Source: a virus
Lineage: Duplodnaviria > Heunggongvirae > Uroviricota > Caudoviricetes
DNA: 41,344 nucleotides
Direction: 5' to 3' (one strand)
IMG/VR virus record: IMGVR_UViG_2681813235_000001
Location: 1 to 41,344 of that record
Shown: in pieces, positions 1,581 through 19,162 of the stretch
Layout: the number at the start of each line of letters is the position of its first letter
Numbering within the stretch: the stretch's first letter is position 1
Notes under the pieces: model-generated
Told to the model about the DNA's origin: nothing
Database searches by the model: none
The model's input: the letters and a program-made list of their open reading frames with translations, nothing else
Translations under genes and position numbers: made by a program

Positions 1581-1997
1581 TCACTCTCCTTTGATGCGAA
1601 TGCCTGTTGCAATGCTGTTTATGATGCTGTCAGTGCATGGGGTAGAAAGCTGGGCATCTCCAGCAATTCTCATGACCTCAACATCTGCATATCGAATACC
1701 GAGGTGTATCAGACCGGCTATACCTGACTTAAGCCGAGCATTTTCCATAAACAGATCCTTTGCCCGCTGTTTTTCTGCCTCAAGCTCAACGCGCAACTTC
1801 CCTACCGTTAACGCAATATCCTCGTTCTCTTGGTCGCGGCGTTTGATGTATTGCTGGTTTCTTTCCCGTTCATCCAGCAGTGCCAGCACAACCTGAGGTG
1901 TGACTTTCATACGAAATGCCAGCAATTTTTGAGGCGTTGCTACTGTTTCAATTGCTACTGCCGCCTCACGCAGTGCCTGAGAGTTAATTTCGCTCAC
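1581..1997 (-). CDS. Ead/Ea22-like protein
   Basis: 138-aa ORF with a coiled-coil-like central region; position and composition typical of Ead/Ea22-like genes in lambdoid early-left regions; family assignment from memory. Confidence 0.45.
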   Translation of the reverse strand: MSEINSQALREAAVAIETVATPQKLLAFRMKVTPQVVLALLDERERNQQYIKRRDQENEDIALTVGKLRVELEAEKQRAKDLFMENARLKSGIAGLIHLGIRYADVEVMRIAGDAQLSTPCTDSIINSIATGIRIKGE

Positions 1998-2215
1998 TTC
2001 GAACCTCTCTGTTTACTGATAAGCTCCAGATCCTCCTGGCAACTTGCACAAGTCCGACAACCCTGAACGACCAGGCGTCTTCGTTCATCTATGGGATCGC
2101 CACACTCACAACAATGAGTGGCAGATATAGCCTGGTGGTTCAGGCGGCGCATTTTTATTGCTGTGTTGCGCTGTAATTCTTCAATTTCTGATGCTGAATC
2201 AATGATGTCTGCCAT
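1994..2215 (-). CDS. TraR/DksA-family C4 zinc-finger protein
   Basis: 73 aa with C-x-x-C ... C-x-x-C (CCECGDPIDERRR ... CRTCASCQ), classic phage TraR-like layout. Confidence 0.6.
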   Translation of the reverse strand: MADIIDSASEIEELQRNTAIKMRRLNHQAISATHCCECGDPIDERRRLVVQGCRTCASCQEDLELISKQRGSK

Positions 2216-2267
2216 CTTCCATTAATCCCTGAATTGTTGGTTAATACGCTTGAGGGTGAATGCGAAC

Positions 2268-2292
2268 AATAAAAAAGGAGCCTGTAGCTCCC
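2268..2292 (-). terminator. candidate Rho-independent terminator (minus strand)
   Basis: Minus-strand RNA: GGAGC-UACAG-GCUCC followed by UUUUUUAUU. Confidence 0.4.
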
Positions 2293-2313
2293 TGATGATT
2301 TTGCTTTTCATGT

Positions 2314-2529
2314 TCATCGCTCCTTAAAGACGCCGTTTAACATGCCGATCGCCAGACTTAAATGAGTCGGTGTGAATCCCATCAGCGTTACCGTTTCGCG
2401 GTGCTTCTTCAGTACGCTACGGCAAATGTCATCGACGTTTTTATCCGGAAACTGCTGTCTGGCTTTTTTGATTTCAGAGTTAGCCAGACGGGCAATGCTG
2501 CGAAGGGCGTTTTCTTGCTGAGGTGTCAT
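2314..2529 (-). CDS. hypothetical protein (71 aa)
   Basis: ORF 2314-2625 trimmed to in-frame ATG at 2529 (MTPQQENALRS...); no family recognised. Confidence 0.4.
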   Translation of the reverse strand: MTPQQENALRSIARLANSEIKKARQQFPDKNVDDICRSVLKKHRETVTLMGFTPTHLSLAIGMLNGVFKER

Positions 2530-2605
2530 TGAACAAGTCCCATGTCGGCAAGCATAAGCACACAAAATATGAAGCCCGCTGCCAGAAAAATGCATTCCGT
2601 GGTTG

Positions 2606-2797
2606 TCATACCTGGTCTCTCTCATCTGCTTCTGCTTTCGCCACCATCATTTCCAGCTTTTGTGAAAGGGATGCGGCTAACGTATGAAATTCTTCGTCTG
2701 TTTCTACTGGTATTGGCACAAACCTGACTCCAATTTGAGCGAGGCTATGTGCCATCTCGATACTCGTTCTTAACTCAACAGGAGATGCTTTGTGCAT
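2606..2797 (-). CDS. hypothetical protein
   Basis: 63-aa ORF; start uncertain (alternative ATG at 2755); acidic C-terminus. Confidence 0.3.
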   Translation of the reverse strand: MHKASPVELRTSIEMAHSLAQIGVRFVPIPVETDEEFHTLAASLSQKLEMMVAKAEADERDQV

Positions 2798-2958
2798 ACA
2801 GCCCCTCGTTTATTATTTATCTCCTCAGCCAGCCGCTGTGCTTTCAGTGGATTTCGGATAACAGAAAGGCCGGGAAATACCCAGCCTCGCTTTGTAACGG
2901 AGTAGACGAAAGTAATCGCGCCTACCCGGATATTATCGTGAGGATGCGTCATCGCCAT
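2770..2958 (-). CDS. hypothetical protein downstream of exo
   Basis: 62-aa ORF whose start overlaps the exo stop (ATGGCGATGA); no family recognised. Confidence 0.4.
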
Positions 2959-3629
2959 TGCTCCCCAAATACAAAACCAATTTCAGCCAGTGCCTCGTCC
3001 ATTTTTTCGATGAACTCCGGCACCATCTCGTCAAAACTCGCTATGTACTTTTCATCCCGCTCAACCACGACATAATGCAGGCCTTCACGCTTCATACGCG
3101 GGTCATAGTTGGCAAAGTACCAGGCATCTTTTCGCGTCACCCACATGCTGTACTGCACCTGGGCCATGTAAGCCGACTTTATGGCCTCGAAACCACCGAG
3201 CCGGAACTTCATGAAATCCCGGGAGGTAAACGGGCATTTCAGCTCAAGACCATTGCCGTCACTGCATAAACCATCGGGAGAGCAGGCGGTGCGCATACTT
3301 TCGTCGCGATAGATGATCGGGGATTCAGTAACATTCACGCCGGAAGTGAATTCAAACAGGGTTCTGGCGTCGTTCTCGTACTGTTTTCCCCAGGCCAGCG
3401 CCTTAGCATTAACTTCCGGAGCCACACCGGTGCAAACCTCAGCCAGCAGGGTGTGGAAGTAGGACATTTTCATGTCAGGCCACTTCTTTCCGGAGCGGGG
3501 TTTTGCTATCACGTTGTGAACTTCTGAAGCGGTGATGACGCCGAGCCGTAATTTGTGCCACGCATCATCCCCTTGTTCGACAGCTCTCACATCGATCCCG
3601 GTACGCTGCAGGATAATGTCCGGTGTCAT
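2949..3629 (-). CDS. exo: lambda-type exonuclease (Red-alpha, YqaJ family)
   Basis: 226-aa translation matches my recollection of phage lambda Exo nearly residue-for-residue ([44 protein letters not shown]...). Confidence 0.95.
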
Positions 3630-4411
3630 GCAGCCACCTTCTGCTCAGAGGCTTTCTGTTTCAGGAATCCAAGAGCTTTCACTGCTTCGGCCTGTGTCAG
3701 TTCTGACGATGCGCGAATGTCGCGGCGAAATATCTGGGAACAGAGCGGCAATAAGTCGTCATCCCATGTTTTGTCTAGGGCAATCAGCAGAGTGTTAATC
3801 TCCTGCATGGTTTCATCGTTAACCGGAGTAATGTCGCGTTCCGGCTGACGTTCTGCGGTGTATGCGGTATTTTCGACAATGCGCTCGGCTTCATCCTTGT
3901 CATAGATACCAGCAAATCCGAAGGCCAGACGGGCACACTGAATCATGGCTTTATGCCGTAACATCCGTTTGGGATGCGACTGCCACGGGCCGGTGATTTC
4001 TCTGCCTTCGCGGGTTTTGAATGGTTCGCGGCGGCATTCATCCATCCACTCGGTAACGCAGATCGGATGATTACGGTCTTTGCGGTAAATTCGGCATGTA
4101 CAGGATTCATTGTCCTGCTCAAAGTCCATGCCATCAAACTGCTGGTTTTCATTGATGATGCGGGACCAGCCATCAACGCCCACCACCGGAACGATGCCGT
4201 TCTGCTTGTCAGGGAAGGCGTAAATTTCTTTCGTCCACGGATTAAGGCCGTACTGGTTGGCGACGATCAGCAATGCGATGAACTGCGCATCGCTGGCATC
4301 ACCTTTAAATGCCGTCTGGCGAAGAGTGGTGATCAGTTCCTGTGGGTCGACAGAATCCATGCCGACACGTTCAGCCAGCTTCCCTGCCAGCGTTGCGAGT
4401 GCTGTACTCAT
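3626..4411 (-). CDS. bet: lambda-type Bet single-strand annealing recombinase (Red-beta)
   Basis: 261-aa translation matches my recollection of lambda Bet ([44 protein letters not shown]...); stop/start overlap with exo. Confidence 0.95.
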
Positions 4412-4416
4412 CCGTT

Positions 4417-4713
4417 TTATACCTCTGAATCAATATCAACCTGGTGGCGGGCAATAGTTTCAACCATGTACCGGATGTGTTCTGCCATGCGTTCCTGAAA
4501 CTCAACATCGTCATCAAACGCACGGGTAATGGCTTTTTTGCTGGCCCCGTGGCGTTGCAAATGATCGATGCATAGCGATTCAAACAGGTGCTGGTGCAGG
4601 CCTTTTTCCATGTCGTCTGCCAGTTCTGCCTCTTTCTCTTCACGGGCGATCTGCTGGTAGTGACGCGCCCAGCTCTGAGCCTCAAGACGATCCTGAATGT
4701 AATAAGCGTTCAT
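4417..4713 (-). CDS. gam: Gam host-nuclease (RecBCD) inhibitor, GamS-length form
   Basis: 98-aa translation matches lambda GamS from memory ([21 protein letters not shown]...VDIDSEV). Confidence 0.9.
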
Positions 4714-4789
4714 GGCTGAACTCCTGAAAATGGCTGTGAAAATATCGCCCGCGAAATGCCAGGCTGATTAGGAAAACAGGAAAGGGGGG

Positions 4790-5200
4790 TTAGTGATTCA
4801 GGCCGTTACCGCGTCCGTCGAGAAAAACTTCCACGAGCAAATCACGGGTATAAGTGCGCTCGATGCCGCGATGCAGATAAAGCCGTCCGCGTAAATTAGC
4901 TGATGCAGTCCAGGTACCATCTTTGTGTTTGACCAGCATTCCTGGCATGACCGCACCTCGATTAACGGTCTGCGTTCCATAATGTTGATGAACCATAAAA
5001 ACTCCTGCCCGTAAGCTGGGCTGCTGAACATATAGAGACTTCTGCGCGTATTCAGGCGGTGGATGGCCGCCGGTTGTCATAACTAAGCCGCCTCGTTGAA
5101 GCGACTGAGGTATGAGGTGTTGAGTTGATTTCAGCTGGTCACACCGACGTTCACGCGTCCGTTTCACCCCTCGCACTCCCCGGAGCCTGCCGAAATTCAA
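4790..5200 (-). CDS. hypothetical first ORF of the leftward (pL-like) operon; start uncertain
   Basis: 136-aa ORF begins with TTG; in-frame ATG (MTTGGHPP...) has GAGG upstream; N-terminal region is Arg-rich (RLRGVRGVKRTRERR), reminiscent of N-type arginine-rich motifs, but no lambda N/Kil/CIII match. Confidence 0.3.
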   Translation of the reverse strand: MNFGRLRGVRGVKRTRERRCDQLKSTQHLIPQSLQRGGLVMTTGGHPPPEYAQKSLYVQQPSLRAGVFMVHQHYGTQTVNRGAVMPGMLVKHKDGTWTASANLRGRLYLHRGIERTYTRDLLVEVFLDGRGNGLNH

Positions 5201-5277
5201 GCTGCGGATCTAAGCGGTCATCGCAACGGTGAATCAGGCGGTTGCCGTATCGTTGTGTTGTTGCGACATGGTAATAA

Positions 5278-5321
5278 TAGCTATTGCTATTGGTGGTATC
5301 AATACTTATTGCTATTGATTG
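5278..5321. promoter_or_regulatory. putative oL-like operator cluster (direct repeats TTGCTATTG)
   Basis: TTGCTATTG at 5284-5292 and 5309-5317 plus near-copy TAGCTATTG 5278-5286; the 13-mer TTGCTATTGATTG (5309-5321) recurs at 7959-7971 next to the repressor gene. Confidence 0.4.
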
Positions 5322-5445
5322 ATGTGTTTTGATATTAACTGTTTGATAGCAAAAAGAATTAATTTTGTGACTTGCATCGCATAGCGATAACTGAAGGGAG
5401 GTTGTGGTGGTTTTTCGAACGGTTTGTGTGATGAGGGGAGGGGAC

Positions 5446-5473
5446 AAAAGAAAACCCGGCACGGTGGCCGGGC
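5446..5473 (-). terminator. Rho-independent terminator ending the repressor-linked operon (tIMM-like)
   Basis: Minus-strand RNA: CCCGGC-CACCGU-GCCGGG followed by UUUUCUUUU. Confidence 0.55.
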
Positions 5474-5637
5474 TAGATCTTAAAGTATTTATCTTTTAGA
5501 GATGTAGATGCAAAATTTTTTGCCTTTGAAAATTTTTTGTCATCAGAAGAGCTTATGAACTCATCTTTTTTGTAGGGAACCGCTAATGCTGCATCACGTC
5601 TGCGAGGCAGCTTACTTACTTCCTCGCACTTTTTCAT
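5473..5637 (-). CDS. unlisted small ORF (54 aa, Lys/Ser-rich) downstream of kinase
   Basis: Hand-translated ATG(5637)...TAG(5473): MKKCEEVSKLPRRRDAALAVPYKKDEFISSSDDKKFSKAKNFASTSLKDKYFKI; ATG is 2 nt after kinase stop; stop abuts the terminator hairpin. Confidence 0.35.
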   Translation of the reverse strand: MKKCEEVSKLPRRRDAALAVPYKKDEFISSSDDKKFSKAKNFASTSLKDKYFKI

Positions 5638-5639
5638 GA

Positions 5640-6686
5640 TCAGTTATCCTTTAATAACCTATACAGTTTTGTAGGGGTACATCCTGAGGATATTGTTAAG
5701 TTCGTAGCACGCCTTTTCCGCCCACCATCGTATAAACGAAAACCAGTAGTAGACGAATTTTCTGCGTCAAAAACTATAGACAGTATAACGTCCCCAGACT
5801 TTTTTTGCCATTCATATGTGCCGTTAGTTGGTTTTGTCATCTGTAGACGCCAGTCAAGAACGCCATCACTTATAGCTGAGAGATCGTTTAGTACGTCTAG
5901 TACGGATTGATATCTTTCATTTGGATCTACATGAATGCATTTGTTTACTATTGTTATCAATTTTTTATGTATGTGGGAAGGATACTCTTTTAATGGATAG
6001 GAGCCATTAATTATCGACTCTCTGAGTTGTTCAATCGTTCTAAATGCAGATCTTTCTCTTTCAAAATTATCATATCCAACACACATTCTATATATGGTTA
6101 ATCCTGCCTGATATATGTCATATGTGAAATTATAATCATTTGTTGATAAAGAAAAATATTCCGGTGGCACATGAAAATGATATCCAAACTCAGGCGCAGC
6201 TCTCGATTCCTCATTGACTAACTGAGACAATCCAAAGTCAGATAGCATGGCCTCATTTCTGTTTGATATCATGATGTTATTAGGTTTTATATCAAAATGC
6301 ATAAGACCTTTTGAGTGTATATGATAAAGCCCACTTAAAAATTGAATAGAATACCGTATTATCTCCCTGCTCGTAAGATTAATCTTTTTTATTAATTGGT
6401 TTAGCGAACCATTATGATAAAATGGCATGGCTATATAGATATTGCTCTCACATTGAGCAGCATACTGAACTTGCACAATATTTGGATGTGCATGTTTATA
6501 GAGAAGCCTTGCTTCATTAAAGTAGTCGTCGTGGTTAGTGTTTTCTTTTTTTTCTATTTCTTTAATCACCAAGTCATGAGCTAGGTGTCTGTCATGAGCC
6601 AGATATACTTTTGAAAAACAACCCTGTTCTTCTAGATCACGAATCCATTCGAATGCTACATCAGCTCTTTTGTATGGAGTCAGCAT
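5640..6686 (-). CDS. Hanks-type (eukaryotic-like) protein kinase
   Basis: 348 aa; kinase motifs visible in translation: Gly-rich loop region GCFSKVY, invariant-Lys region LVIKEI, catalytic loop HFDIKPNN, SDFG (DFG motif); ATG overlaps stop of upstream ORF (ATGCTGA); visibly AT-rich. Confidence 0.85.
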   Translation of the reverse strand: MLTPYKRADVAFEWIRDLEEQGCFSKVYLAHDRHLAHDLVIKEIEKKENTNHDDYFNEARLLYKHAHPNIVQVQYAAQCESNIYIAMPFYHNGSLNQLIKKINLTSREIIRYSIQFLSGLYHIHSKGLMHFDIKPNNIMISNRNEAMLSDFGLSQLVNEESRAAPEFGYHFHVPPEYFSLSTNDYNFTYDIYQAGLTIYRMCVGYDNFERERSAFRTIEQLRESIINGSYPLKEYPSHIHKKLITIVNKCIHVDPNERYQSVLDVLNDLSAISDGVLDWRLQMTKPTNGTYEWQKKSGDVILSIVFDAENSSTTGFRLYDGGRKRRATNLTISSGCTPTKLYRLLKDN

Positions 6687-15848: not shown

Positions 15849-15959
15849 GGCTTGCGGGGAGCATCAACTCCGTGCTTTGTCGTTAAATTACCCCGTGAGT
15901 CTGATTTCTGACATTTAACGTCCCGGCCTTTTGTCGGCGGCGAAACATTGGCTATTCAT

Positions 15960-16265
15960 ATGCACGAAAAAGAGAGCCTTGCCGGAGCGTTCTGGCTCGT
16001 TTTGCTGATCATCGCAGGTTGGGGCGGTCTGGTCCGCTACCTGATAGATGTGAAGCAGAGTAAAGCAACGTGGAGTTGGATAAATGCTCTGGCTCAGATA
16101 GTGGTATCAGGATTCACCGGTGTTATTGGTGGCCTGATCAGCATCGAAAGTGGATTCAGTATTTACATGATTCTCGCGACAGCGGGGATTAGTGGTGCGA
16201 TGGGTTCGGTTGCACTGACGTACTTCTGGGAACGACTGACAGGGGTGAAAAATGCAAAATCTTAA
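15960..16265 (+). CDS. holin (three predicted TM helices)
   Basis: ORF 15948-16265 starts with TTG; first ATG at 15960; three hydrophobic segments; immediately upstream of, and overlapping, the endolysin. Confidence 0.65.
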   Translation: MHEKESLAGAFWLVLLIIAGWGGLVRYLIDVKQSKATWSWINALAQIVVSGFTGVIGGLISIESGFSIYMILATAGISGAMGSVALTYFWERLTGVKNAKS

Positions 16266-16728
16266 TCCTCAGCGTAAAGCTTTCCTCGATATGGTGGCAT
16301 GGTCAGAAGGAACGGATAACGGACGGCAGAAAACCAGAAATCATGGTTATGACGTCATTGTAGGCGGAGAGCTATTTACTGATTACTCCGATCACCCTCG
16401 CAAACTTGTCACGCTAAACCCAAAACTCAAATCAACAGCCGCCGGACGTTACCAGCTTCTTTCCCGTTGGTGGGATGCCTACCGTAAGCAGCTTGGCCTG
16501 AAAGACTTCTCTCCAAAAAGCCAGGACGCTGTGGCATTGCAGCAGATTAAGGAGCGTGGCGCTTTACCGATGATTGATCGCGGTGATATCCGTCAGGCTA
16601 TCGATCGTTGCAGCAATATCTGGGCGTCGTTACCTGGTGCAGGTTACGGTCAGTATGAACATAAAATCGGTGACCTGATTTCCCGGTTTAAAGAGGCTGG
16701 TGGGGTGGTAAATGAAGTTGAGCTATAA
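16252..16728 (+). CDS. R: endolysin, lambda R-type lytic transglycosylase
   Basis: 158-aa translation matches lambda R from memory (NQRKAFLDM.AWSEGTDNGRQKTRNHGYDVIVGGELFTDYSDHPRKLVTLNPKLKST...). Confidence 0.9.
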   Translation: MQNLNPQRKAFLDMVAWSEGTDNGRQKTRNHGYDVIVGGELFTDYSDHPRKLVTLNPKLKSTAAGRYQLLSRWWDAYRKQLGLKDFSPKSQDAVALQQIKERGALPMIDRGDIRQAIDRCSNIWASLPGAGYGQYEHKIGDLISRFKEAGGVVNEVEL

Positions 16729-17104
16729 GCTGGTTATCGCTGCATTCTTCTTTACTGTCATCGGTTCTTTCATCTGGTCTGCCAACCACTACTACAGCAA
16801 ATATCAGCACGAAAAGAAACGTGCTGATGAGGCTGTACAAAATGTTGAATCTGCAACAGCCATTACCCGTAACGTCCTGCAATCACTGCAAATCGTCAAT
16901 ACAGTTATAGAGGTTAACCAGCATGCAAAACAGCAGATCGCACTGGAGTCACAGAGAACCCAGGAAGATATCAAAGTGGCTGTTGCGGATGATGATTGTG
17001 CTTCACGTCCTGTGCCTGCTGCCGCTGCTGACCGGTTGCGGAAATTCGCGAACGGTTTACGTGAGCGCTCCGGTGGCACCACTGCCAGCCAGCCTGACTT
17101 CTGA
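16712..17104 (+). CDS. Rz: Rz-like i-spanin
   Basis: N-terminal TM helix then coiled-coil-like periplasmic region; overlaps endolysin 3' end. Confidence 0.65.
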   Translation: MKLSYKLVIAAFFFTVIGSFIWSANHYYSKYQHEKKRADEAVQNVESATAITRNVLQSLQIVNTVIEVNQHAKQQIALESQRTQEDIKVAVADDDCASRPVPAAAADRLRKFANGLRERSGGTTASQPDF

Positions 17105-17261
17105 TACTCCTGTACCGTTTATACCCAATCCGCTGACGTATGGTACCAGTCTGGAGTTGAATGTTGCTCTATTGTCAGCCTTGGGACAATGTAATTTTGA
17201 TAAAACTGGAATCAGAAAGATTGAATCACGGCGCGCTATTTTGCATTCGAAAGACAAATAG
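16989..17261 (+). CDS. Rz1: Rz1-like o-spanin lipoprotein (overlapping Rz in another frame)
   Basis: From ATG 16989 in ORF 16923-17261: MMIVLHVLCLLPLLTGCGNS has a lipobox (LTGC); Pro-rich mature part; starts inside Rz and extends past it. Confidence 0.5.
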   Translation: MMIVLHVLCLLPLLTGCGNSRTVYVSAPVAPLPASLTSDTPVPFIPNPLTYGTSLELNVALLSALGQCNFDKTGIRKIESRRAILHSKDK

Positions 17262-17629
17262 CTCGAGTTATATTTTTCATTATCAGTGCGAATGCGCCTA
17301 ATAAAGCTGTGTATTATGATAATTTTATAAAACTTATGGGCTTAAATTCAGACGCCAGCGTTTTTATAGTGTAATGTAGCAGCTTACATAAAATATGCAT
17401 CGTGATTAACTATTAGTCCAACCTTTTGGACCAATATGAAAGTGGAAGTTTGTACAAATCGTTTGTAGATGATTAAACATGTGTCTAGTAGAGCTAGTCA
17501 TGAACAGGTTTATTACGTATCATTTTGTTTAGATTATCGAGAGTACAACTAGTAGAGCAGCTAATCTTTAGATAGTGCCAGTGATGTTCACTTACGATAA
17601 ACTAACCTTTTCATTCAGTGGAGGTTATG

Positions 17630-18064
17630 ATGTGGCATACATTACTTAACTGGCCTTGGGGAACTGTGTGGTCAGCTGTATCGGCTTTAGGTTCAATTGT
17701 AACTGTTACATTAGGTTTTTGGGCAATGAATGTTTGGCGGCGACAGGAGGCTCTGAAGGCCAAAATGGCTCTGAAAATGGCAGTGGCTGATTATTCAAAT
17801 GCATTATCACAGCTACCTTTATCTCTTAGTCGTAATGTTCGTATTGAAAAAAGGGCCGAGCTACGAGAGTTAAGCCATAAATTAAATGCTATTAATAATG
17901 CTTTTTTGATATGCGAACATATGTTGGAAAAATACCCACGTGTAAACAGCGGTTGTCGTTCTTTATCTGTTGCCCACAAAGAATATATTAGAATGAGAGA
18001 TAATAGTATTCAGGCGAAATATATTTGTCATAATATTCTTTCAGAACAGTTTGTATTCAAATGA
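17630..18064 (+). CDS. hypothetical membrane-anchored protein (cargo between lysis and packaging genes)
   Basis: ORF 17618-18064 begins with GTG; ATGs at 17627/17630 follow GGAGG; N-terminal TM helix; AT-rich gene and flanks. Confidence 0.45.
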   Translation: MWHTLLNWPWGTVWSAVSALGSIVTVTLGFWAMNVWRRQEALKAKMALKMAVADYSNALSQLPLSLSRNVRIEKRAELRELSHKLNAINNAFLICEHMLEKYPRVNSGCRSLSVAHKEYIRMRDNSIQAKYICHNILSEQFVFK

Positions 18065-18191
18065 AAATGAACGATTGGTATTTACTTGCCGTTTATTCAT
18101 TGGATTGAAAAGTCTATTTAGCAAACCGTGTTAAAGCGGTTTCTGATTGCAGTTATGGTTAGATATTTAACGAAAACTACAGGGATAATAG

Positions 18192-18542
18192 ATGCCTCCA
18201 CGAACCCCAAAAGCCTGCCGCGTTCGCGGCTGCCGCCATACCACGACTGACCCATCAGGCTACTGCGAAAGCCACAAAAGCGAAGGCTGGAAGCAATACA
18301 AGTCTGGCCAGTCCCGTCATCAGCGCGGTTATGGTTCGAAGTGGGACGTTATCCGCGCGCGTGTGCTGAAGCGTGACAAAGGCCTGTGCCAGTTGTGCCT
18401 GCGTGCCGGTGTGGTGCGCGAGGCGAAAACCGTTGACCACATCATCCCTAAAGCGCATGGCGGCACCGATGCAGACAGTAACCTACAGAGTCTGTGCTGG
18501 CCGTGTCATAAGGCGAAGACGGCCCGTGAACGGATTAAGTAA
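18192..18542 (+). CDS. HNH endonuclease (terminase-associated)
   Basis: 116 aa with Cys pairs and DHIIPKAHGG...N...LCWPCH (HNH motif); directly upstream of the terminase genes as in HK97-like phages. Confidence 0.8.
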   Translation: MPPRTPKACRVRGCRHTTTDPSGYCESHKSEGWKQYKSGQSRHQRGYGSKWDVIRARVLKRDKGLCQLCLRAGVVREAKTVDHIIPKAHGGTDADSNLQSLCWPCHKAKTARERIK

Positions 18543-18564
18543 GAACCAGTTCCCACTGCCAGAG

Positions 18565-18628
18565 GGGAGGGGCGGGTCAAATCCCTGTGACCTGACGTCT
18601 TCCGGACTGCCCGCCCCATCGTTTTTTT
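18565..18628 (+). other. GC-rich inverted repeat plus T-tract between HNH and TerS (terminator and/or cos-proximal element)
   Basis: GGGGCGGG (18569-18576) ... CCCGCCCC (18610-18617) followed by TTTTTTT (18622-18628). Confidence 0.3.
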
Positions 18629-18667
18629 ATACCCGCGAAAAATGAAATTTAACCAGGAGTGCCGCAT

Positions 18668-19162
18668 ATGGCTGGAACGGCGGGGCTTTCCGGGCGTCGC
18701 CCCAAGCCAACGGCGCGCAAGGCGCTGGCCGGAAACCCCGGCAAGCGAGCCCTGAATAAAGATGAACCTGTTTTTACGCCCATCAAAGGTGTTGAGCCAC
18801 CGGAGTGGTTCGCTGAAGAAGATCTCCCTCTCGCCACGATCATGTGGCAACTGACAACCAAAGAACTCTGCGGTCAGGGCCTGCTGTGCGTGACTGACCT
18901 CGCGGTGCTTGAGCGGTGGTGCGTGGCCTACGAGTTCTGGCGGCGTGCCGTGAAAAATATTGCCAGACAGGGCAACACCATCACCGGTGCAATGGGTGGC
19001 ATGGTCAAAAATCCGGAGCTGACCGCCAAGAAAGAACAGGAGTCCGAGATGAGCAGCACGGGGGCAATGCTCGGACTCGACCCCAGCAGCCGCCAGCGTC
19101 TGATTGGCCTGGCGGGGCAGAAGAAAGCCACTAACCCGTTTCTGAAAATCATCGAATCATGA
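18668..19162 (+). CDS. terminase small subunit
   Basis: ATG 18668 with AGGAG 8 nt upstream (ORF 18659 begins with GTG); ~164 aa; immediately precedes and overlaps TerL. Confidence 0.7.

What the first reader, a model, noticed from the sequence alone, without database searches (positions are those of the whole stretch)
17262..18130. AT-rich cargo gene for a membrane-anchored protein between Rz/Rz1 and HNH/terminase
Seen: a ~145-aa ORF with an N-terminal TM helix inside a visibly AT-rich stretch with long AT-rich flanks, inserted between the lysis and packaging modules. Established knowledge: lambda carries the lysogenic-conversion gene bor at the equivalent position. Function here is unknown; it could be a conversion factor or an exclusion/defence protein.
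Basis: partly seen in the sequence, partly recalled or inferred. Interest (0 to 1): 0.5.

Follow-up and report, generated by a model that had tools for sequence, protein, structure and literature searches.

The report
Prophage add-on gene for membrane protein
This is a real add-on ("moron") gene that an E. coli prophage carries between its lysis and DNA-packaging genes; it encodes a small inner-membrane protein of an uncharacterised phage family, probably made in the lysogen to interfere with other phages, but its function is untested, so it is a fairly ordinary find.

Summary
A 974-bp AT-rich segment (17205-18178; GC 0.33-0.37, flanks 0.49-0.59) replaces the 69 bp that phage SfV has between Rz1 and HNH. 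It carries one gene, 17630-18064 (+), 144 aa. The gene is under purifying selection (dN/dS 0.05-0.28).

The protein has one N-terminal TM helix and a cytoplasmic four-helix bundle (AF2 pLDDT 84; positive-inside rule met in 70 of 72 relatives). It belongs to PHROG 6169 (unknown function). It has no Pfam, NCBIfam, PADLOC or PDB relative.

In 35 of 42 loci examined, the family lies directly after the lysis cassette and before the packaging genes, whatever their types. The exceptions are three loci inside a DNA-modification cluster upstream of the terminase, one between TerL and portal, one antiparallel to its neighbours, and two without recognisable lysis genes upstream.

The Rz1-HNH junction in E. 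coli is a polymorphic cargo site. It can be empty, hold four unrelated AT-rich genes, or hold a 21%-identical allele of this same family.

A -10-like hexamer abuts an anti-Shine-Dalgarno hairpin upstream of most members. In the window copy this leader is weak.

Best reading: a moron encoding a prophage-expressed inner-membrane exclusion or abortive-infection protein (function inferred, about 0.4). A Bor-like surface role is unlikely. It is a new member of a known kind.

The parts
17205..18178 (.). AT-rich segment that replaces 69 bp of phage SfV between the 3' end of Rz1 and the HNH gene (the moron plus its flanks)
   Evidence: blastn against SfV breaks at 17204 and resumes at 18179. GC is 0.33-0.37. 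The full 17100-18300 stretch is present in 27 of 5,426 E. coli genomes; the 17240-17600 part alone matches 28.
17630..18064 (+). Coding sequence, 144 aa (RefSeq calls 17627, 145 aa): a bitopic inner-membrane protein of family PHROG 6169
   Evidence: dN/dS 0.05-0.28. 67 cluster representatives at E<1e-3, 60 of them 129-195 aa (the rest six shorter proteins of 51-113 aa and one 966-aa outlier).
17657..17734 (+). Predicted transmembrane helix (about W10-V35), Gly/Ala/Ser/Thr-rich and flanked by Trp
   Evidence: Kyte-Doolittle scan, and K/R counts of 0 before versus 4 after the helix. AF2 models a helix over 11-61.
17735..17776 (+). Juxtamembrane cytoplasmic motif W-R-R-Q-E-A-L-K-A-K-M-A-L-K, the most conserved part of the family (K invariant; W and Q at least 90%)
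   Evidence: alignments A1 and A2
17603..17627 (+). Hairpin pairing UAACCUUU with GGAGGUUA, which sequesters the Shine-Dalgarno sequence (GGAGG 17620-17624)
   Evidence: RNAfold gives -7 kcal/mol, no better than shuffles in this copy. In the family, 17 of 21 lineages have the SD paired, against 11.6 expected. The arms differ between deep alleles but stay complementary. There is no double compensatory change within the close group.
17575..17603 (+). Candidate weak sigma-70 promoter: GTGCCA, 17 nt, TAAACT (8 of 12). The -10-like hexamer directly abuts the hairpin.
   Evidence: Read from the sequence. T1, A2, A4 and T6 of the hexamer are invariant in 13 upstream sequences. A hexamer of the same kind is seen 25-30 nt before the start in the deep alleles where this was measured. 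It falls below the scan's 9-of-12 threshold.
17495..17523 (+). Second promoter-like site, TAGTCA, 17 nt, TATCAT (9 of 12), specific to the E. coli lineage
   Evidence: The scan found 5 sites against 3.1 expected, so it is not significant on its own.
17262..17574 (.). AT-rich non-coding spacer upstream. No conserved structure. More diverged than the gene, with indels.
   Evidence: RNA fold z = +0.44. No Rfam match. It occurs only together with the gene.
18065..18178 (.). AT-rich non-coding tail of the insert. No intrinsic terminator.
16992..17261 (+). Rz1 (o-spanin, lysC) on the left flank. Its last 57 nt belong to the replaced segment.
18192..18542 (+). HNH endonuclease on the right flank, the first gene of the packaging module

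Best explanation
The segment is a horizontally acquired single-gene moron. It sits at a polymorphic cargo site between the lysis cassette and the packaging module of an SfV/e14-like E. coli prophage.

Shown: it encodes a 144-aa bitopic inner-membrane protein. The protein has a short N-terminus outside the cell, one TM helix and a roughly 110-residue four-helix bundle in the cytoplasm. It belongs to an uncharacterised family of temperate enterobacterial phages (PHROG 6169).

Inferred: the gene is transcribed at a low level from its own weak promoter in the lysogen. The conserved -10-like hexamer abuts the 5' arm of an anti-Shine-Dalgarno hairpin, so a transcript starting about 7 nt downstream would lack that arm and be translated. 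The Q-dependent late read-through transcript would carry the whole hairpin and be translated poorly. This resembles IS10 fold-back inhibition.

Inferred: the protein acts at the cytoplasmic face of the inner membrane against superinfecting phages, either by blocking genome entry or by aborting infection. On this reading the conserved TM and juxtamembrane helix is the anchor or effector part, and the fast-diverging bundle is the specificity part.
For: Cargo status: the insert is defined against SfV, it occurs in 27 of 5,426 genomes, and its GC deviates from the locus in E. coli, Hafnia and Enterobacter copies.

Hotspot: the same Rz1-HNH junction is empty or carries four unrelated AT-rich genes. 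In 27 genomes, including ETEC H10407, it carries a 21%-identical allele of the same family. The region upstream of the packaging module is a published moron and defence site in lambdoid phages (PMC11364771).

Independence from the lysis machinery: the window and L001 share the cargo at 99.9% identity but have unrelated holins. L001 and L048 share a holin at 97% but carry the two divergent alleles. The family follows four or more kinds of lysis cassette and precedes three kinds of terminase.

Own transcription: a -10-like hexamer shows the canonical conservation pattern. The leader is more conserved than the coding sequence in deep pairs (0.84 vs 0.59; 0.76 vs 0.60). Intrinsic terminators follow the gene in 6 of 16 lineages. 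One member is antiparallel to all its neighbours (L052).

Topology: 70 of 72 members have more K/R after the TM helix (mean 4.07) than before it (0.38).

Precedent: the HK97 gp15 moron sits inside a late operon and encodes an inner-membrane exclusion protein (PMC3594210).

Against: In the window copy the promoter is weak (8 of 12), no terminator is present, and the hairpin is no more stable than shuffles. Within the close group the hairpin shows no double compensatory change.

The gene is co-oriented with the late operon in all but one context, so it must be transcribed late in lytic growth whatever else happens.
Confidence: 0.4

Rival explanations
1. It is a late-expressed accessory of the phage's own lytic cycle. 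The membrane-anchored protein would be made from the Q-dependent late transcript and would tune lysis timing, membrane events at the end of infection, or some packaging or egress step. The hairpin would simply keep its dose low.
For: The gene is co-oriented with the late operon in 41 of 42 loci. It directly follows the spanin genes in 35 of them, including alleles of 18-25% identity. The window copy has no terminator and only a weak promoter. The remaining members still lie close to terminase genes.
Against: It is absent from most otherwise near-identical prophages (27 genomes carry it; about 980 match only the flanks), so it is dispensable. It does not co-vary with the type of holin, endolysin, spanin or terminase. 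In CobraSix it is separated from the lysis genes. Its AT-rich composition is foreign to the late operon. One member is antiparallel to its neighbours. It has no similarity to holins, antiholins or spanins.
Confidence: 0.25
2. It is a lysogenic-conversion factor that changes host physiology or virulence rather than phage sensitivity. This would be the Bor, Lom or GrlR-like kind of moron. For example, it might modulate an inner-membrane transporter, a stress response or a signalling protein from the cytoplasmic side.
For: It occupies the same hotspot as lambda bor (established knowledge). A GrlR-family regulator sits at this very junction in other strains. The window hairpin pairs a U-rich arm with the SD, which loosely resembles fourU RNA thermometers (the resemblance is my own knowledge).
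Against: The globular domain is predicted to be cytoplasmic, and only about 9 residues face the periplasm. That excludes a Bor-like surface role. There is no lipobox or signal peptide. There is no Rfam thermometer match. The family is confined to phage late regions and was not seen in chromosomal or pathogenicity-island contexts.
Confidence: 0.15
3. It is a selfish or neutral passenger. The gene would persist because it rides a recombination-prone junction and costs little, with no selected function for phage or host.
For: It has a patchy distribution and no recognisable domain. The window copy has weak expression signals.
Against: There is clear purifying selection over long divergence (dN/dS 0.05-0.28). 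Motifs are conserved family-wide across 67 cluster representatives. The leader is more conserved than the coding sequence in deep pairs.
Confidence: 0.1

Closest known systems
HK97 gp15 moron (superinfection exclusion; Cumby et al. 2012, reviewed in PMC3594210)
   Same: Both are single-gene morons embedded in and co-oriented with a late operon of a lambdoid phage. Both encode a small inner-membrane protein with one TM helix. gp15 is expressed from the prophage and blocks genome entry.
   Different: gp15 is 62 aa, YebO-like and lies in the tail operon. There is no sequence relationship: tblastn of the query against 50,697 phage records found only Enterobacter phage CobraSix. This protein has a 110-residue cytoplasmic bundle, and its function is untested.
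Lambda bor (lipoprotein moron between Rz and cos)
   Same: It occupies the same genomic niche, between the lysis genes and the packaging end of a lambdoid genome.
   Different: Bor is an outer-membrane lipoprotein encoded on the opposite strand. This protein has no lipobox and no Pfam hit, its domain faces the cytoplasm, and it is co-oriented with the late genes.
Tai/Ati tail-assembly-inhibition systems of phi80-like phages (PMC11364771)
   Same: These are prophage defence genes placed predominantly just upstream of the packaging module. Their expression is arranged so that the defence is on in the lysogen and neutralised in the lytic cycle.
   Different: Tai is a 26-kDa soluble protein transcribed divergently, with a partner anti-Tai gene. 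Here there is a single co-oriented gene for a membrane protein, and any insulation would be translational (the hairpin).
IS10 fold-back inhibition of externally initiated transcripts (Davis, Simons and Kleckner 1985; my own knowledge, no citable text found)
   Same: The 5' arm of an RBS-sequestering hairpin lies at or upstream of the element's own transcription start. Only read-through transcripts would therefore be translationally blocked.
   Different: The IS10 case is proven. Here the transcription start is only predicted from a -10-like hexamer, and the hairpin is weak in the window copy.
Listeria TERi locus (bioRxiv 10.1101/2025.02.27.640495)
   Same: A conserved promoter region serves as home for different small prophage defence genes. 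Here the leader is more conserved than the divergent alleles downstream of it.
   Different: TERi is in a Gram-positive host, lies in the early module, and encodes soluble small proteins that target the terminase. There is no homology.

Membership tests
Moron (Juhala/Hendrix definition, as summarised in PMC3594210) | Extra DNA relative to closely related phages | tested here: met
   974 bp here against 69 bp in SfV. The junction is empty in many E. coli prophages (H62-H67).
Moron (Juhala/Hendrix definition, as summarised in PMC3594210) | Base composition differs from the surrounding genes | tested here: met
   GC 0.37 (GC3 0.29) against 0.49-0.59 in the neighbours
Moron (Juhala/Hendrix definition, as summarised in PMC3594210) | Own promoter | tested here: inconclusive
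   The window has only weak candidates (8 of 12 and 9 of 12). The family-wide conserved -10-like hexamer and one antiparallel member argue for a promoter.
Moron (Juhala/Hendrix definition, as summarised in PMC3594210) | Own terminator | tested here: not met
   None in the window copy. Present in 6 of 16 related lineages.
Moron (Juhala/Hendrix definition, as summarised in PMC3594210) | Expression from the repressed prophage | not testable with these tools
   Needs RNA or protein data from a lysogen
PHROG 6169 (phage protein family of unknown function) | Significant full-length match to the family profile | tested here: met
   E = 4e-57 over residues 4-145. All 35 aligned relatives match.
Lambda Bor family | Lipoprotein signal peptide with lipobox, and a Bor Pfam domain | tested here: not met
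   No Pfam hit at E <= 10. No Cys before residue 95 (sequence).
i-spanin (Rz-like) | N-in/C-out topology, extended periplasmic coiled coil, and a partner o-spanin gene | tested here: not met
   K/R counts of 0 before and 4 after the TM helix predict N-out/C-in. The model is a compact four-helix bundle. There is no spanin Pfam or PHROG hit. The phage already has Rz and Rz1.
Holin / antiholin | A small membrane protein matching a holin family, linked to one lysis cassette type | tested here: not met
   The only holin PHROG hit has E = 2.3. The cargo and the holin type are uncoupled.
Known anti-phage defence systems (PADLOC-DB v2) | A match to any defence protein model | tested here: not met
   0 hits for the query. 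Only isolated, insignificant hits among 35 relatives.
Superinfection-exclusion or abortive-infection proteins (functional class) | Protects the lysogen against other phages | not testable with these tools
   Needs phage challenge of a clone or of a deletion lysogen

The most novel reading that the evidence does not exclude
PHROG 6169 would be a previously unrecognised family of prophage-encoded inner-membrane anti-phage proteins, acting by exclusion or abortive infection. Highly divergent alleles (about 20-70% identity among those compared) would act as specificity variants at one conserved slot between the lysis and packaging genes. Each would sit behind a conserved leader that permits translation from the moron's own promoter in the lysogen but folds back to silence translation on the phage's late read-through transcript. 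That would be a translational route to avoiding self-harm during the prophage's own lytic cycle.
Probability: 0.3. Interest if true: 0.6.

Novelty: new member of a known kind. Interest (0 to 1): 0.35.

Why it matters
If the inferred role is right, this adds a small single-gene membrane protein family to the prophage-encoded anti-phage repertoire of Enterobacteriaceae, including ETEC H10407 and clinical E. coli. It would mark the Rz1-HNH / spanin-terminase junction of SfV- and lambda-like prophages as a hotspot worth mining. At least four other unannotated AT-rich cargos sit there.

The leader architecture, a -10 box abutting an anti-SD arm, would be a simple and testable way for a moron inside a late operon to be expressed in lysogeny yet kept quiet during lytic growth. 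If the role is wrong, it remains one more hypothetical membrane protein in a prophage.

Tried and rejected
- Pfam, NCBIfam and PADLOC scans of the protein and of 35 relatives found nothing usable.
- A PDB sequence-profile search had a best E of 0.12.
- Rfam found no match in 16500-18800.
- A structured RNA in the 368-nt upstream spacer was rejected (z = +0.44).
- A Zn-binding site formed by Cys/His (C96, C110, H117, C134, invariant in the close group) was rejected, because those residues are not conserved in the wider family.
- A second i-spanin, a holin or a Bor-like lipoprotein were each rejected on topology and family tests (see the membership table).
- Covariation support for the hairpin within the close group is absent: 0 double changes, and the shuffles do equally well. 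A shuffle control shows SD pairing is common by chance (11.6 of 21 expected, 17 observed), and the window hairpin is not better than shuffles.
- The search for related loci with the wide alignment failed for lack of a conserved stretch. The genome-contig scan returned only one locus.
- A literature search found no citable text for IS10 fold-back inhibition. HepS and TERi are unrelated proteins.

Full report
**What is there**

The window is an SfV/e14-like E. coli prophage with an HK97-type head, a Mu-type contractile tail and a lambdoid early region. It is 100% identical over 17100-18300 to two E. coli chromosomes (NZ_OY754416.1 and NZ_OY754389.1) and 97.7-99.9% identical to the other fully matching ones.

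Between Rz/Rz1 (16712-17261) and the HNH endonuclease (18192-18542) lies an AT-rich stretch with a single convincing ORF on the + strand. GC is 0.374 in the ORF (GC3 0.29), 0.337 in the 365 bp upstream and 0.331 in the 127 bp downstream. The window as a whole is 0.494, and HNH and TerL are 0.54-0.59.

Homology to phage SfV stops at 17204, inside the last 57 nt of Rz1, and resumes at 18179, 13 nt before the HNH start. SfV has 69 bp in between.

The one correction concerns the start codon. RefSeq calls ATG 17627 (145 aa). Close variants have ATT there, and every homolog begins MW/MF/ML. The start is therefore ATG 17630 (144 aa), 5 nt after GGAGG.

**It is a real gene of a small, uncharacterised phage family**

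- Pairwise dN/dS among nine lineages is 0.05-0.28.
- The protein matches PHROG 6169 (unknown function) at E = 4e-57.
- It matches nothing in Pfam, NCBIfam or PADLOC.
- A word-indexed search of 5.8 billion proteins found only 22 relatives, in E. coli, Salmonella, Hafnia and Enterobacter.
- An exhaustive profile search of 1.84 billion cluster representatives found 67 at E <= 1e-3. Sixty are 129-195 aa; the rest are six shorter proteins (51-113 aa) and one 966-aa outlier.
- None of 35 diverse members hits a Pfam family, and all hit PHROG 6169.

**The protein**

AlphaFold2 (17-sequence alignment, pLDDT 84, pTM 0.68) gives one long helix over residues 11-61 followed by helices that pack into a four-helix bundle. 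The first part of that helix is the hydrophobic segment.

In the window protein the hydrophobic segment is Gly/Ala/Ser/Thr-rich and only marginally hydrophobic (Kyte-Doolittle 1.54). Relatives reach 2.7. Only 2 of 72 members show a second strongly hydrophobic stretch.

In 70 of 72 family members the 15 residues after the TM helix hold more K/R (mean 4.07) than the 15 before it (mean 0.38). By the positive-inside rule the short N-terminus is periplasmic and the bundle is cytoplasmic.

The best-conserved part is the juxtamembrane helix W-[RKS]-x-Q-[ED]-x-L-K-A-K-x-x-[FL]-K, followed by weaker motifs ((C/T)-E-x-L, H-x-x-Y-x-x-G, and C-terminal F-V-F). The Cys and His residues that are invariant in the close group are not conserved in the wider family, so I dropped the idea of a metal site.

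Fold searches return only generic helical bundles. A PDB profile search returns nothing.

**Where the family lives**

I examined 42 loci.

- In 35 loci, the gene lies on the late-gene strand directly after the spanin genes of whatever lysis cassette is present. Cassette types seen were a lambda-family holin with GH24; holin_8 plus holin_3_7 with GH19 or GH108; and PF00959 lysozymes. The gene lies before whatever packaging module is present: HNH with P27-type TerS and HK97-type TerL; Nu1-like with GpA; or Terminase_2. This holds even for alleles only 18-25% identical (L037, L040, L050, L051).
- In three prophages (L041, L049, L053) it lies inside a DNA-modification cluster between the lysis genes and the terminase.
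- In the temperate Enterobacter phage CobraSix, a 34%-identical member lies between TerL and portal.
- In L052 the gene is antiparallel to all its neighbours, so it must have its own promoter there.
- In L010 and L033 no recognisable lysis genes lie directly upstream.

The cargo does not co-vary with the lysis machinery. The window and strain EC1515 share the cargo at 99.9% identity but have unrelated holins. EC1515 and ETEC H10407 share a holin at 97% identity but carry alleles that are 21% identical.

**The junction is a cargo hotspot**

I queried E. coli genomes with the two flanks joined. Different strains show different contents at the junction:

- empty junctions of about 70 bp, as in SfV;
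- four unrelated AT-rich single genes (GC 0.37-0.39): 168 aa, 169 aa, 94 aa on the opposite strand, and a GrlR-family protein of 106 aa;
- an insert without an annotated gene;
- a 184-aa protein (WP_001005132.1) in 27 genomes, including ETEC H10407, and in Salmonella phage 118970_sal3. It is a distant member of the same family (E = 2.5e-40 to the family profile).

None of these other cargos has a significant Pfam or PADLOC match. The GrlR-family protein's hit falls just below Pfam's cutoff. Published work places prophage defence morons (Tai) predominantly just upstream of the packaging module in lambdoid phages (PMC11364771).

**Regulatory anatomy**

DNA homology between the window and the Hafnia prophage begins 39 nt before the start codon. 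Upstream sequences of 13 close lineages share two features:

- a hexamer whose T1, A2, A4 and T6 are invariant: TAAAAT, TACAAT, TAGAAT, and in the window TAAACT at 17598-17603;
- directly next to it, the 5' arm of a hairpin whose 3' arm is the Shine-Dalgarno sequence.

Most deep alleles show the same layout, with different but still complementary arms. Examples are AACCTCC/GGAGGTT, CCTCA/TGAGG, CTCACT/AGTGAG and ATCCTTT/AAAGGAT. Where I measured it, the hexamer ends 25-30 nt before the start codon. In several deep pairs the 70-nt leader is more conserved than the coding sequence (0.84 vs 0.59, 0.76 vs 0.60, 0.74 vs 0.55).

The limits of this evidence are clear:

- Within the close group the hairpin shows no double compensatory change, and shuffles do as well.
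- In a shuffle control the SD is paired by chance in about half of the cases (17 of 21 observed, 11.6 expected).
- The window's own hairpin (-7 kcal/mol) is no better than shuffles.
- The window's candidate promoter (GTGCCA, 17 nt, TAAACT) scores 8 of 12, below the scan threshold. The scan's own hit at 17495-17523 scores 9 of 12, in a region where 5 hits were found against 3.1 expected.
- Intrinsic terminators follow the gene in 6 of 16 lineages but not in the window.

**How it most likely works**

Shown:
- It is a moron-type insertion at a polymorphic junction.
- It is a real, conserved gene.
- It encodes a bitopic membrane protein whose bundle is predicted to be cytoplasmic.
- It is independent of the lysis and packaging module types.

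Inferred:
- Transcription comes from its own weak promoter in the lysogen. A start about 7 nt after the -10-like hexamer falls inside the anti-SD arm.
- The moron's own mRNA would therefore be translatable. The late read-through mRNA, which must cross this gene to reach HNH, terminase and the structural genes, would fold back and be poorly translated. This is the logic of IS10 fold-back inhibition (my own knowledge; I found no citable text).

Function is inferred by analogy. The HK97 gp15 moron is an inner-membrane exclusion protein encoded inside a late operon (PMC3594210). Defence genes occupy this niche in phi80-like phages. The pattern of a conserved anchor and juxtamembrane helix with strongly divergent alleles at one slot fits a specificity-varying anti-phage protein acting at the cytoplasmic face of the inner membrane. 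I put this at about 0.4.

**Rivals**

- A late-expressed accessory of the phage's own lytic cycle (0.25). The constant co-orientation and adjacency to the lysis and packaging genes favour it. Dispensability, lack of co-variation with partners and foreign composition count against it.
- A non-defence conversion factor (0.15). A Bor-like surface role is disfavoured by the predicted topology.
- A neutral passenger (0.1). Purifying selection and leader conservation contradict it.

**Comparison with what is known, and verdict**

The element meets two of the moron criteria (extra DNA, deviant composition). The promoter criterion is inconclusive, the window copy fails the terminator criterion, and prophage expression cannot be tested here. 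The protein is a member of PHROG 6169. It is not a member of the Bor, spanin or holin families, or of any PADLOC family.

It is a new member of a known kind: a moron-encoded inner-membrane protein. The most interesting and testable aspects are the allelic series at a fixed slot and the -10/anti-SD leader. Interest is moderate to low (0.35) unless a phenotype is shown.

Noticed in passing
L043:746-1300 and L048:2547-3101 (ETEC H10407, WP_001005132.1); also Salmonella phage 118970_sal3 76310-76861: A 184-aa protein only 21% identical to the window protein occupies exactly the same Rz1-HNH junction in 27 E. coli genomes. It matches the family profile at E = 2.5e-40, so two very divergent alleles of one family share one slot.
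   Followed up: yes
L042:843-1349, L044:708-1217, L045:743-1027 (-), L046:752-1072: Four unrelated AT-rich (GC 0.37-0.39) single-gene cargos sit at the same junction in other E. coli prophages. Three have no Pfam or PADLOC match. The fourth is a GrlR-family (T3SS regulator-like) protein of 106 aa.
   Followed up: partly
L047:660-1250: A junction insert of about 580 bp has no annotated gene. It contains a duplicated copy of the HNH 5' end and a repeated block of about 290 bp.
   Followed up: no
L021:313-768 and L022:4604-5059: A 90%-identical variant of the window gene carries a 21-nt in-frame duplication inside the TM segment (SAVSALG twice), which lengthens the helix by 7 residues.
   Followed up: no
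L052:4001-4480: A family member (P0060, 159 aa) lies antiparallel to all its neighbours in a prophage with a T7-type connector gene. It must therefore be an independent transcription unit there.
   Followed up: partly
L041, L049, L053 (genes around 1900-6200 of each locus): In these prophages the family gene lies inside a cluster of DNA-modification-type genes between the lysis cassette and the terminase. The genes are MptE-like, Methyltransf_23, DAM-like/GNAT, TAGT (DpdA-like) and ParB_N.
   Followed up: no
L037:4025-5186 and L039:4025-5186 (- strand): A KwaA (Kiwa) gene and a partner sit between the Q antiterminator and the lysis cassette of an Enterobacter prophage, which is a second cargo hotspot. 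L038 has colicin and immunity genes next to the prophage early region.
   Followed up: no
window 15948-16265 versus L001:18823-19149: The window and strain EC1515 carry the same cargo gene (99.9% identical) and endolysin, but their holin genes are unrelated. This is sharp mosaicism within the lysis cassette.
   Followed up: partly
window 17406-17501 (- strand): A 31-aa ORF in the AT-rich spacer stays open (35 aa) in the diverged copy L022. It has no Shine-Dalgarno sequence and many non-synonymous differences, so it is probably not a gene.
   Followed up: partly
NZ_CP059288.1 3547391-3547703 (hit H57): In one E. coli genome the match to the upstream spacer stops at window position about 17552, with a 'hypothetical protein' annotated there. 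This may be a rearranged or interrupted copy.
   Followed up: no
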